Shown: piece after piece, positions 56,601-59,600 of the stretch
Layout: the number at the start of each line of letters is the position of its first letter
Numbering within the stretch: position 1 is the stretch's first letter
NCBI RefSeq assembly: GCF_024700885.2
Contig: NZ_CP117016.1
DNA length: 64,000 bases
DNA from: Escherichia coli
GTDB lineage: Bacteria > Pseudomonadota > Gammaproteobacteria > Enterobacterales > Enterobacteriaceae
Reading direction: 5' to 3' (one strand)
Position numbers: made by a program

Positions 56601-59600
56601 CTTCGTTGTTCATCAGAATGATTTTGACATCCAGCTGATTTTCACTGGCGGTCGCCATCTCCTGAATATTCATCATCAGGCTGCCGTCGCCGGAGAAACA
56701 CAACACTTTGCGATCCGGGTTCGCCAGCGCCGCGCCAATGGCCGCAGGCAGACCAAAGCCCATCGTGCCCAGCCCACCGGAGGTCAGCCACTGGCGTGGG
56801 CGATTGAGCGGATAAGCCTGCGCGGTCCACATCTGATGCTGACCCACGTCGGTGGTGATAATCGCATTGTCATCGACACAGGCGGCAACGGCGTTGATCA
56901 GGCCGTAATGGCTTAATGGATCGCACGCTTTCGGGATTGGACACGGGAATTCGCGCTGCAAATCCGCTACCAACTGGTGCCACTCTGCACGCGGTTGCGC
57001 TTCCACCTGCGGGATCAGCTGCGCCAGCACGTCATCAACATCCGCCTGAATCGCTACGTGCGGCTGCTTGATTTTACCCAGCTCTGCGCGATCGATATCG
57101 ACATGAATAATTTTCGCATTCGGACAGAACTGCTCGGTTTTGCCAATCGCCCGGTCATCAAAACGCGCGCCGAGAACAATCAGCAGATCCGCCTCCTGCA
57201 AGATATAGTTGGTGCTGCGCACACCGTGCATCCCCAGCATACCCAGCGACAACGGATGCGCTTTTGGCAACATGCCCAGCGCCATTAAAGTCATGGTGGT
57301 AGGCAGCTGCGCTTTCTCCGCCAGTTCACGCACTCGCGCAGGCGCATTGATCACACCGCCGCCCAGATAAAGCACCGGGCGTTTGGCAGCATTAATCATT
57401 GCCGCTGCGTCACGAATGCTTTCTTCGCTAAAAGCGGGTGCGGCGGCTTTTTCTGCCATAGCGGGCTGTGCTTCAATCTCAAAAACGGCCGTTTGCACAT
57501 CCTTAGGAATGTCTATCCACACCGGGCCAGGGCGGCCTGATTGCGCAATACGAAAGGCATCGCTCATGACCTGCGGGAGTTCTTCGATATGTCTGACCAG
57601 ATAGTTGTGTTTGGTGATGGGGATAGAGATGCCGTAGGTGTCCACTTCCTGGAAGGCGTCGGTGCCGATCATCGAGGCGGGAACCTGACCGGTGATGCAA
57701 ATCAACGGGATGGAGTCCAGCCGCGCATCGGCAATGGCGGTCACCAGGTTAGTCGCGCCCGGCCCGCTACAGGCCATACAGACCGCCGGTTTACCGTCGG
57801 TGCGCGCCATTCCCTGAGCGATAAACCCCGCGCCCTGTTCATGGCGAGCCAGAATATGGCGGATTTGCGTGCTTTGGCTTAAGGCATCGTAAACAGGCAG
57901 GATAGAACCGCCCGGAATGCCCGTCACAATCTTAATGCCCTGCTGTTCCAGGAAATGAACGATAAATTCTGCGCCGGTAAAGCGCTTACGCGTTGATGTT
58001 GTGCCCGAACTTGCCATGCTCCAGTCCTTTTCTTCTGGGCCGACTTTCCGGGAGGTGCTTAAACGAAAAACCCCGCCCGGTTTGCGCCGGCGGGGTTTTG
58101 GAATCGTGTGTTGTTCCAGTCCCTACGGCGCATTGCCGACGACCACCACCACACGCACGACGACCACTGCGGCGGATGGCGCAGTTGGTAGTAGTTTTGC
58201 GTTGAACATGGAAGTAGTCATTGGGGACCTTGTTGGTTTTGTGTTTAACAATATTTATACAAGCACAGCTTTACAGGGGAGACAATGGAAAATTTTTCAG
58301 CAAGGGAAAATTGAGGGGTTGATCACGTTTTGTACTGAATTGCAGGTAACAAAAAACCCCGCCGGAGCGAGGTTTCGTCAGTCGCCTGCGGCTGGTAACC
58401 GCAAAGCACACTGTATTATGTCAACACTGAAAGTATACGTGTTCCGCGCAGAACGCGCAATTTCGGCACGAATTTTGACGTATTTAGTGCATAGTTGAGT
58501 ATCGATCATAGTTTGCGTTTTGTCCAAATATTACTGTTTATTTATACAGTAAACTTCTATAATATCACTGTACGCAATGTGTTATGTGGGGGCCGCATCG
58601 TTACCCGGCGCACTAAGTCCTGGCTGAAACGGGTGGTGCCGTCAGCGCCTTAACCCCGCGTGAGCACACTGTGTTATGTCAACAAGCACAACGTTTCTCC
58701 TTGAGATACCGCGTGCACAACAGCTGGCAACAGGCAGCGGAAAGGTACGTCAGCTGGCAGTGCTCCTGAACCACAGGAGACGCGTATGAGCCTGGTGGAT
58801 ATCGCCATTCTTATCCTCAAACTCATTGTTGCAGCACTGCAACTGCTTGATGCTGTTCTGAAATACCTGAAGTAATTCAGATTCAAGTCGCACCAAAGGG
58901 GAGCGGGTAACCGCTCCCCTTTCATATTTAGCGTGCGGGTTGGTGTCGGATGCGATGCTGATGCATCTTATCCGCCCTACCATCCCTCCCGGCAACATTT
59001 ATTGCCGCTTTTGTTTACATATTCTGCCGCTAAACAATTCCCCATTCCTGGCGTATATCTGGCTAACATTTATCAATGTGATAGATTCCTCTCCCGCATT
59101 TATGGGAATGCGTAGTGACTTATTCTAATTATTTTTATAAAAGCATCCGTGATAATGAAAAGGCATAGAAACGTCAATTTGTTATTGATGTTGGTATTAC
59201 TCGTGGCCGTCGGTCAGATGGCGCAAACCATTTATATTCCAGCTATTGCCGATATGGCGCGCGATCTCAACGTCCGTGAAGGGGCGGTGCAGAGCGTAAT
59301 GGGCGCTTATCTGCTGACTTACGGTGTCTCGCAGCTGTTTTATGGCCCGATTTCCGACCGCGTGGGCCGCCGACCGGTGATCCTCATCGGAATGTCCATT
59401 TTTATGCTGGCAACGCTAGTCGCGGTCACGACCTCCAGTTTGACGGTATTGATTGCCGCCAGCGCGATGCAGGGCATGGGCACCGGCGTTGGCGGTGTAA
59501 TGGCGCGTACGTTGCCGCGTGATTTATATGAACGGACACAGTTGCGCCACGCTAACAGCTTGTTAAACATGGGGATTCTTGTCAGTCCGTTGCTCGCACC

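What the first reader, a model, noticed from the sequence alone, without database searches (positions are those of the whole stretch)
58066..58221. ivbL leader peptide and attenuator upstream of ilvB
A 32-codon leader ORF with a run of Val and Leu codons (AAVVVVRVVVVV) is followed by a GC-rich hairpin and T-tract before ilvB, the classic attenuation arrangement. It is not in the ORF track because it is below the size cut-off.
Basis: partly seen in the sequence, partly recalled or inferred. Interest (0 to 1): 0.2.

Follow-up and report, generated by a model that had tools for sequence, protein, structure and literature searches.

The report
ivbL leader and ilvBN attenuator
This is the textbook E. 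coli ivbL leader peptide and transcription attenuator, which turns on the ilvBN genes for valine and leucine synthesis when those amino acids run short; it is real, correctly identified and already well known.

Summary
Both the observation and the interpretation hold. On the minus strand, 58221->58123 is a 32-codon ORF (MTTSMFNAKLLPTAPSAAVVVVRVVVVVGNAP*). It scores above the curated cut-offs of the IvbL models (NCBIfam NF007579: 80.1 vs 60 bits; Pfam PF08049: 75.7 vs 25). The DNA is 100% identical to RefSeq E. coli genomes that annotate ivbL-ilvB-ilvN here.

A GC-rich hairpin (58099-58067, -21.1 kcal/mol) with a U5 run (58070-58066) lies 49 nt before the ilvB start codon. An antiterminator (58132-58121 pairing with 58094-58083, -21.9 kcal/mol, 0 of 2000 shuffles as stable) uses six bases of the terminator's 5' arm and four of its loop. 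A modelled ribosome at the UAG stop covers the antiterminator's 5' arm; one stalled at Leu10-11 or Val19-26 leaves it free.

Across nine enterobacterial genera, the CUA-CUA pair, the Val run (synonymous sites included), the antiterminator arm and the terminator are almost invariant. Covariation is therefore uninformative, but purifying selection at the nucleotide level is strong.

The only local peculiarity is a Leu6->Phe allele (C->T at 58206). Already known; low interest.

The parts
58309..58330 (-). CRP-like site AAACGTGATCAACCCCTCAATT upstream of the ivbL promoter
   Evidence: It resembles the TGTGA-N6-TCACA consensus. GTGATC and the C.CA of the second half-site are invariant in nine genera. 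That the ilvB promoter depends on cAMP-CRP is from memory of Friden et al. 1982 and was not tested here.
58254..58268 (-). Promoter -10 region CTGTGCTTGTATAAA (TATAAA at 58259-58254, with TG upstream)
   Evidence: The block is almost invariant in nine genera. The consensus scan did not call a full -35/-10 promoter here. The transcription start near 58247 is inferred, not shown.
58222..58247 (-). CA-rich 5' UTR with the ivbL Shine-Dalgarno (AAGG at 58231-58228)
   Evidence: Read from the sequence. Papers report GcvB sRNA targeting of the ivbL 5' UTR (PMC9299463; PMC11347164).
58123..58221 (-). ivbL leader ORF, 32 codons plus UAG
   Evidence: annotation; NCBIfam NF007579 at 80.1 bits and Pfam PF08049 at 75.7 bits.
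58189..58194 (-). Regulatory Leu codons CUA CUA (codons 10-11)
   Evidence: Identical at every base in all nine genera, while the neighbouring codons vary.
58138..58167 (-). Val run, codons 19-28 (VVVVRVVVVV)
   Evidence: Eight of nine Val third positions are invariant across nine genera, against 2 of 25 for conserved Val codons in ilvB.
58126..58138 (-). Small hairpin CGGC-AAUGC-GCCG, the part of the 'protector' fold that sequesters the antiterminator's 5' arm
   Evidence: -5.6 kcal/mol. Its four pairs are invariant in nine genera. It is present in the MFE of the untranslated leader.
58083..58132 (-). Antiterminator: UGCGCCG (58132-58126) and GGG (58123-58121) pair with CCC (58094-58092) and CGGCGCA (58089-58083), enclosing a small CA-rich-loop hairpin (58118-58099)
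   Evidence: -21.9 kcal/mol; 0 of 2000 shuffles as stable. Nine of the ten outer pairs are invariant.
58066..58099 (-). Intrinsic terminator (attenuator): stem 58099-58087 / 58080-58067, loop CGCAAA, U5 at 58070-58066
   Evidence: -21.1 kcal/mol. Eleven of thirteen pairs are invariant.
58018..58040 (-). Conserved hairpin GCCCAG...CUGGAGC around the ilvB ribosome-binding site
   Evidence: RNAalifold consensus in which most sequences keep each pair (one G-A break) and one pair alternates C-G with U-G. Its function was not tested.
56329..58017 (-). [quoted passage not shown]
   Evidence: NCBIfam NF006016 at 1088.8 bits against a cut-off of 870; annotation.
56035..56325 (-). ilvN, acetolactate synthase I small subunit (96 aa)
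   Evidence: NCBIfam NF006036 at 185.8 bits against a cut-off of 128; annotation.

Best explanation
This is the ivbL-ilvBN leader of Escherichia coli, a ribosome-mediated transcription attenuator. Transcription starts about 25 nt upstream of the leader ATG. A ribosome translates the 32-codon ivbL while RNA polymerase transcribes the next ~60 nt. When charged tRNA-Val and tRNA-Leu are plentiful, the ribosome reaches the UAG at 58125-58123. There it covers the 5' arm of the antiterminator (58132-58121), the terminator hairpin (58099-58067 plus U5) forms, and transcription stops before ilvB. When Val or Leu is scarce, the ribosome stalls at CUA-CUA (codons 10-11) or in the Val run (codons 19-26). 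The 5' arm stays free and pairs with 58094-58083 as soon as that is made. This consumes most of the terminator's 5' arm and loop, so polymerase reads through into ilvBN. Shown here: the ORF, its family membership, the operon context, the two mutually exclusive hairpins, the geometry relative to the stop and the regulatory codons, and nucleotide-level conservation. Taken from the literature: the response to Val and Leu, and the effect of ribosome occupancy at the stop. Inferred: the transcription start, the kinetic order of folding, and the fate of an untranslated leader.
For: The DNA is 100% identical to RefSeq E. coli genomes annotated ivbL/ilvB/ilvN; 5418 of 5426 genomes carry it. The peptide exceeds the curated IvbL cut-offs. 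The terminator folds at -21.1 kcal/mol and the antiterminator at -21.9 kcal/mol, and they share bases. The antiterminator beats 2000 of 2000 dinucleotide shuffles of 58134-58100 (z = -4.3) and all but 18 of 2000 for 58140-58100. With a ribosome edge 14 nt 3' of the A site, the antiterminator survives A-site codons up to 26 (-21.2 to -21.9 kcal/mol), drops to -10.7 at codon 27, and is gone from codon 28 to the stop. The same 31-32-codon leader lies about 100 nt upstream of ilvB in Salmonella, Citrobacter, two Klebsiella, Raoultella, Leclercia, Intestinirhabdus and Enterobacter. Leader codons 19-33 and the terminator are each 89% invariant, against 26-52% for the flanks. Twelve of fourteen third positions in codons 19-32 are invariant, against 82 of 405 synonymous third positions in ilvB (Fisher p = 5.5e-7). 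Published reporters respond to Val and Leu (PMC11187965), and stop-codon occupancy raises attenuation (PMC5373646).
Against: Nothing contradicts it, but some tests were uninformative or ambiguous. The terminator and antiterminator helices never vary among the nine genera, so there is no covariation support. At equilibrium the full-length leader folds into the terminator whatever the ribosome position, so the switch has to be kinetic, which was not modelled. Shuffling the whole G-rich 68-nt upstream segment gives alternative pairing with the C-rich terminator arm about as often as the real sequence does. For an untranslated nascent leader ending at 58081, the antiterminator is favoured by about 10 kcal/mol over the pre-formed protector fold, so classical 'superattenuation' without translation is not predicted by thermodynamics alone. 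No Rfam family covers the element.
Confidence: 0.96

Rival explanations
1. The hairpin is only a generic, possibly bidirectional, intrinsic terminator, and the short ORF is a chance or independently acting small peptide, with no translational coupling between them.
For: The hairpin has an A run on its 5' side and a U run on its 3' side, and it gives weak terminator-like Rfam matches on the plus strand (STnc310 at 21.4 bits, P6 at 20.6 bits, both far below gathering). At equilibrium the terminator always wins.
Against: The ORF, its CUA-CUA and Val codons, its stop position and the hairpin are co-conserved at fixed spacing upstream of ilvB in nine genera. The stop codon sits inside the antiterminator's 5' arm. 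Published reporter data show Val- and Leu-dependent control.
Confidence: 0.02
2. Control of ilvBN here is mainly post-transcriptional, through GcvB sRNA and RNase E acting on the CA-rich 5' UTR and the CA-rich ivbL-ilvB spacer, and attenuation is secondary.
For: GcvB represses ivbL and ilvB translational fusions through its R1 region, and RNase E sites map to the ivbL-ilvB intergenic region (PMC9299463; PMC11347164). CA-rich stretches are present at 58246-58232 and 58113-58106.
Against: These papers treat GcvB as a layer added to attenuation, and repression of ivbL was weak. It does not explain the Val and Leu codons, the terminator, or their invariance.
Confidence: 0.02
3. The 165-codon plus-strand ORF 58001-58498, which overlaps the region, is the real gene, and the minus-strand features are incidental.
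For: It appears in the mechanical ORF list.
Against: RefSeq does not annotate it. It overlaps the ilvB start, ivbL, the promoter and the istR RNA (Rfam, 150 bits). Its poly-Thr stretch is simply the antisense of the Val run.
Confidence: 0.005

Closest known systems
E. coli K-12 ivbL-ilvBN attenuator (IvbL; NCBIfam NF007579, Pfam PF08049)
   Same: It is the same locus. Over 246 aligned bases, the promoter -10 region, 5' UTR, leader, attenuator and ilvB ribosome-binding site are identical to a laboratory E. coli strain except for one base.
   Different: Codon 6 is TTC (Phe) instead of CTC (Leu), from a C->T change at 58206. This allele therefore has two Leu codons instead of three. Codon 6 also varies between genera (L, F or I), whereas codons 10-11 are invariant. 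In an evenly spaced sample of 40 of the 5418 ranked genomes, 7 were mismatch-free over their aligned length (5 over the full 206 bases, 2 over 204) and 33 carried at least one mismatch.
trpL/trp operon attenuator of E. coli (the paradigm of ribosome-mediated attenuation)
   Same: A short leader ORF with tandem codons for the end product, alternative antiterminator and terminator hairpins, and a ribosome at the stop that favours the terminator.
   Different: The regulatory codons are Val (9) and Leu (2) rather than Trp (2). The antiterminator's 5' arm overlaps the last leader codons and the stop codon itself. The trp comparison is from general knowledge; no Rfam leader family, Trp_leader included, matched here.
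ilvL-ilvGMEDA and leuL-leuABCD attenuators
   Same: They belong to the same branched-chain amino-acid regulon and use the same mechanism; they are named as sibling attenuators in PMC9299463.
   Different: They are different leader peptides at different loci. ivbL has no Ile codons, which fits control by Val and Leu only (the physiological statement is from the literature).

Membership tests
IvbL leader peptide (NCBIfam NF007579 equivalog; Pfam PF08049 IlvB_leader) | Full-length match to the family HMM above the curated cut-off | tested here: met
   NF007579: 80.1 bits against a cut-off of 60, residues 1-32 of 32. PF08049: 75.7 bits against a cut-off of 25.
IvbL leader peptide (NCBIfam NF007579 equivalog; Pfam PF08049 IlvB_leader) | Encoded immediately upstream of ilvB-ilvN on the same strand | tested here: met
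   The ORF ends at 58123, ilvB runs 58017->56329 and ilvN 56325->56035. The RefSeq annotation has the same order.
Ribosome-mediated (leader-peptide) transcription attenuator | Leader ORF enriched in codons for the pathway's end products | tested here: met
   Nine Val and two Leu codons in 32. CUA-CUA and the Val run are conserved in nine genera.
Ribosome-mediated (leader-peptide) transcription attenuator | Intrinsic terminator (GC-rich hairpin plus U run) between the leader ORF and the first structural gene | tested here: met
   58099-58067 plus U5 at 58070-58066, -21.1 kcal/mol. The simple scan missed it.
Ribosome-mediated (leader-peptide) transcription attenuator | Antiterminator structure mutually exclusive with the terminator | tested here: met
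   58132-58121 pairs with 58094-58083, -21.9 kcal/mol, and shares ten bases with the terminator's arm and loop. Zero of 2000 shuffles are as stable.
Ribosome-mediated (leader-peptide) transcription attenuator | Geometry: a ribosome at the stop blocks the antiterminator, and a ribosome stalled at the regulatory codons does not | tested here: met
   assuming a ribosome edge 14 nt 3' of the A site. The arm is free for A-site codons 10-26 and masked from codon 28 to the stop.
Ribosome-mediated (leader-peptide) transcription attenuator | Compensatory base changes supporting the alternative helices | tested here: inconclusive
   The terminator and the outer antiterminator helices are invariant in nine genera. 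Only two compensatory pairs were found, both in the protector fold.
Ribosome-mediated (leader-peptide) transcription attenuator | Downstream expression rises when the cognate amino acids or charged tRNAs are limiting | not testable with these tools
   Literature only: a GFP reporter behind the E. coli MG1655 ivbL is repressed by Val plus Leu (PMC11187965), and attenuation rises with stop-codon occupancy (PMC5373646).
Rfam amino-acid leader RNA families (any of the 4227 Rfam 15 models) | Covariance-model match on the leader strand | tested here: not met
   No minus-strand match at E <= 1 within 58060-58250. The element is therefore not filed under any Rfam family.

The most novel reading that the evidence does not exclude
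The near-total nucleotide invariance from the Val run to the terminator, synonymous sites included, across nine genera may reflect RNA-level constraints beyond the textbook terminator/antiterminator pair. Candidates are a defined protector or pause fold that pairs the variable 5' half of the ORF with the Val run, or the GcvB/RNase E layer. Separately, the Leu6->Phe allele in this strain might slightly lower the element's sensitivity to leucine.
Probability: 0.15. Interest if true: 0.2.

Novelty: already known. Interest (0 to 1): 0.07.

Why it matters
It matters only as a correct annotation. The window carries an intact, canonical control region for acetolactate synthase I, the first step of valine and leucine synthesis. 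The element is also used as a Val/Leu biosensor in metabolic engineering (PMC11187965). Nothing here challenges current understanding.

Tried and rejected
None of the 80 loci shown in the output came from an enterobacterium; they were GC-rich actinobacteria, archaea and myxobacteria.

I reached other genera through IlvB instead.

(3) Equilibrium folding of the full leader with a masked ribosome footprint always gave the terminator. I replaced it with folding of the nascent transcript before region 4 exists.

(4) A shuffle test over the whole 68-nt G-rich upstream segment gave no signal, with 725 of 1000 shuffles at least as good. The test restricted to the ribosome-free segment did give a signal.

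(5) Covariation counts on the terminator and antiterminator were uninformative because those columns never vary.

(6) The consensus promoter/terminator scan found neither the ivbL promoter nor the attenuator.

(7) Variation within E. coli is too low for comparative work: 5408 of 5418 genomes are at least 99% identical over the leader.

(8) The pairing of the Shine-Dalgarno region GGUCCC with GGGACU seen in the E. coli MFE is only partly kept in other genera; its middle pair is broken in 6 of 9.

Full report
OBSERVATION. On the minus strand there is an ATG at 58221 and a UAG at 58125-58123. Between them lie 32 sense codons: MTTSMFNAKLLPTAPSAAVVVVRVVVVVGNAP. Downstream comes the sequence AAAACCCCGCCGG-CGCAAA-CCGGGCGGGGUUUUU. 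It folds into a 13-pair hairpin with one bulged G, spanning 58099-58067 at -21.1 kcal/mol, and is followed by a U5 run at 58070-58066. ilvB starts at 58017. One correction is needed: the Leu codons are not part of the Val run. There are two of them, CUA-CUA at codons 10-11, separated from the Val run by seven codons.

IDENTITY. A 341-base query across the region is 100% identical to many RefSeq E. coli chromosomes and is present in 5418 of 5426 complete genomes. The annotated features under it are 'ivbL: ilvB operon leader peptide IvbL' and 'ilvB'. In strain 1190 the ivbL CDS maps exactly to 58221-58123. The neighbours are emrD, ysdE and tisB on one side and ilvB, ilvN on the other. The peptide scores 80.1 bits against NCBIfam NF007579 (equivalog, cut-off 60) and 75.7 bits against Pfam PF08049 (cut-off 25). 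ilvB and ilvN pass their own equivalog cut-offs. No Rfam family matches the leader strand. Only istR, 130 nt further upstream, is recognised.

THE FOLDING TEST. I first folded the full leader at equilibrium with a 30-nt ribosome footprint masked at each codon. The terminator always won. This is expected for a kinetic switch and shows that equilibrium folding of the finished transcript is the wrong test.

I then folded the nascent RNA that exists before the terminator's 3' arm is made (3' end at 58081), using only the RNA 3' of the ribosome edge. A second structure appears. UGCGCCG (58132-58126) pairs with CGGCGCA (58089-58083), and GGG (58123-58121) pairs with CCC (58094-58092). These helices enclose a small hairpin with a CA-rich loop, and the whole structure is -21.9 kcal/mol. 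It uses six of the nine bases of the terminator's CCCCGCCGG arm and four of the six loop bases, so the two structures cannot coexist, and their stabilities are nearly equal.

The 5' arm of this antiterminator is made of leader codons 30-32, the UAG and the next bases. With the ribosome edge set 14 nt 3' of the A site (an assumption from general knowledge of ribosome footprints), the structure is intact for A-site codons up to 26. It falls to -10.7 kcal/mol at codon 27 and is abolished from codon 28 through the stop. Stalling at Leu10-11 or Val19-26 therefore permits antitermination, while a ribosome that reaches the stop prevents it.

IS THIS MORE THAN CHANCE? Dinucleotide shuffles of the ribosome-free segment 58134-58100, with the terminator arm kept fixed, never reached -21.9 kcal/mol (0 of 2000, z = -4.3). 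With 58140-58100, 18 of 2000 did. A broader test that shuffled all 68 nt from the Val run onward gave no signal, because any G-rich sequence can pair with the C-rich arm. I report this as a limitation.

THE UNTRANSLATED LEADER. When the 3' end is at 58100 or 58090, the MFE is a 'protector' fold. The 5' half of the ORF pairs with the Val run, GGUCCC (the Shine-Dalgarno region) pairs with GGGACU, and a small hairpin CGGC/GCCG (58138-58126) ties up the antiterminator arm. At 58081 the antiterminator becomes about 10 kcal/mol better. With the full terminator present, protector plus terminator is again best (-71.0 against -66.6 kcal/mol). The fate of an untranslated leader therefore depends on refolding kinetics that I could not model.

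COMPARATIVE EVIDENCE. The peptide was too short for the protein search, and a degenerate DNA scan was wasted. I therefore found IlvB orthologues and fetched their contigs. All eight have a 31-32-codon leader about 100 nt upstream of ilvB: Salmonella, Citrobacter, a member of the Klebsiella pneumoniae complex, K. oxytoca, Raoultella, Leclercia, Intestinirhabdus and Enterobacter. Seven of the eight were already tagged PF08049.

In the nine-way alignment, the N-terminal half of the peptide varies. CUA-CUA, the Val run, GGC-AAU-GCG-CCG-UAG-GG and the whole terminator are essentially fixed. Invariant columns make up 89% of codons 19-33 and 89% of the terminator. The figures elsewhere are 48% for codons 1-18, 52% for the spacer, 32% for the stretch between the terminator and the ilvB ribosome-binding site, and 26% for the 5' UTR. 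Third positions of codons 19-32 are invariant in 12 of 14 cases, against 82 of 405 synonymous third positions in ilvB (Fisher p = 5.5e-7). For Val codons the figures are 8 of 9 against 2 of 25.

Because the helices do not vary, covariation is silent for the terminator and antiterminator. RNAalifold recovers protector plus terminator as the consensus, with two compensatory pairs in the protector. The conclusion is strong selection on the RNA sequence itself, consistent with overlapping structural and coding constraints, but without a covariation proof.

LITERATURE. PMC11187965 placed gfp behind the MG1655 ivbL region. Val and Leu feeding lowered the signal, six other amino acids had no significant effect, and the paper describes the 32-codon ORF as having twelve Val and Leu codons. 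PMC5373646 showed that higher ribosome occupancy at the ivbL UAG increases attenuation, which is what the geometry above predicts. PMC9299463 and PMC11347164 add a GcvB/RNase E layer acting on the ivbL 5' UTR and the ivbL-ilvB spacer. The original descriptions (Friden et al. 1982; Hauser and Hatfield 1983) are cited from memory only.

WHAT IS PARTICULAR TO THIS WINDOW. Compared with a laboratory strain, the only difference in 246 bases is C->T at 58206. This changes codon 6 from CTC (Leu) to TTC (Phe), leaving eleven rather than twelve Val and Leu codons. Codon 6 is L, F or I in other genera, so it is unlikely to be a key regulatory codon.

UPSTREAM ELEMENTS. Upstream of the leader, a CRP-like site (58330-58309) and a TG-TATAAA -10 block (58268-58254) are conserved across genera. 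The transcription start near 58247 is inferred.

VERDICT. The element is the known ivbL attenuator, so the novelty is 'already known' and the interest is low.

Noticed in passing
window 52806-55773 (minus strand), between uhpA (52704) and ilvN (56035): A low-GC (33-37%) insert of about 3.3 kb carries two tandem paralogous ORFs of 520 and 431 aa (26% identity over 368 aa, E = 8e-27). Neither matches an NCBIfam or PADLOC family, and the 431-aa ORF has no Pfam hit. The DNA is present in about 1100 of 5426 complete E. coli genomes but is highly diverged: only 39 are at least 99% identical and 650 are 80-90% identical. RefSeq calls it 'hypothetical protein' and, in strain 1190, annotates only the last 160 codons of the 431-aa ORF.
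   Followed up: partly
window 58351-58480 (minus) and 58786-58875 (plus): This is the istR/tisB type I toxin-antitoxin locus. istR matches Rfam RF01400 at 150 bits, with its own terminator at 58368-58351 just upstream of the ivbL promoter region. The 29-codon tisB ORF (MSLVDIAILILKLIVAALQLLDAVLKYLK) lies on the opposite strand.
   Followed up: partly
window 58206: The ivbL allele has Phe6 (TTC) where a laboratory E. coli strain has Leu6 (CTC). This is the only difference in 246 bases of promoter, leader and attenuator.
   Followed up: yes
window 58018-58040 (minus): A conserved hairpin, GCCCAG-AAGAAAAGGA-CUGGAGC, overlaps the ilvB ribosome-binding site. Most of the nine genera keep each pair (one G-A break), and one pair alternates C-G with U-G. 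RNase E sites and a GcvB site have been reported somewhere in this spacer, but their relation to the hairpin was not examined.
   Followed up: no
window 58138-58167 (minus): The choice of Val codon (GUG GUC GUC GUG ... GUG GUG GUG GUC GUC) is fixed across nine genera, although Val codons in ilvB drift freely (8 of 9 against 2 of 25 invariant third positions). The RNAalifold consensus pairs this run with the variable 5' half of the ORF. Whether structure, codon-specific tRNA sensing or both explains the fixation is open.
   Followed up: partly
window 58999-59073 (minus): A small ORF corresponds to the annotated 24-aa protein YsdE, between tisB and emrD, by coordinate mapping from strain 1190.
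   Followed up: no
L123 901-2712 (Citrobacter portucalensis): The IlvB orthologue is 603 aa rather than 562 aa. It aligns with the others at both ends, so it carries an internal insertion of about 41 residues. Not examined.
   Followed up: no
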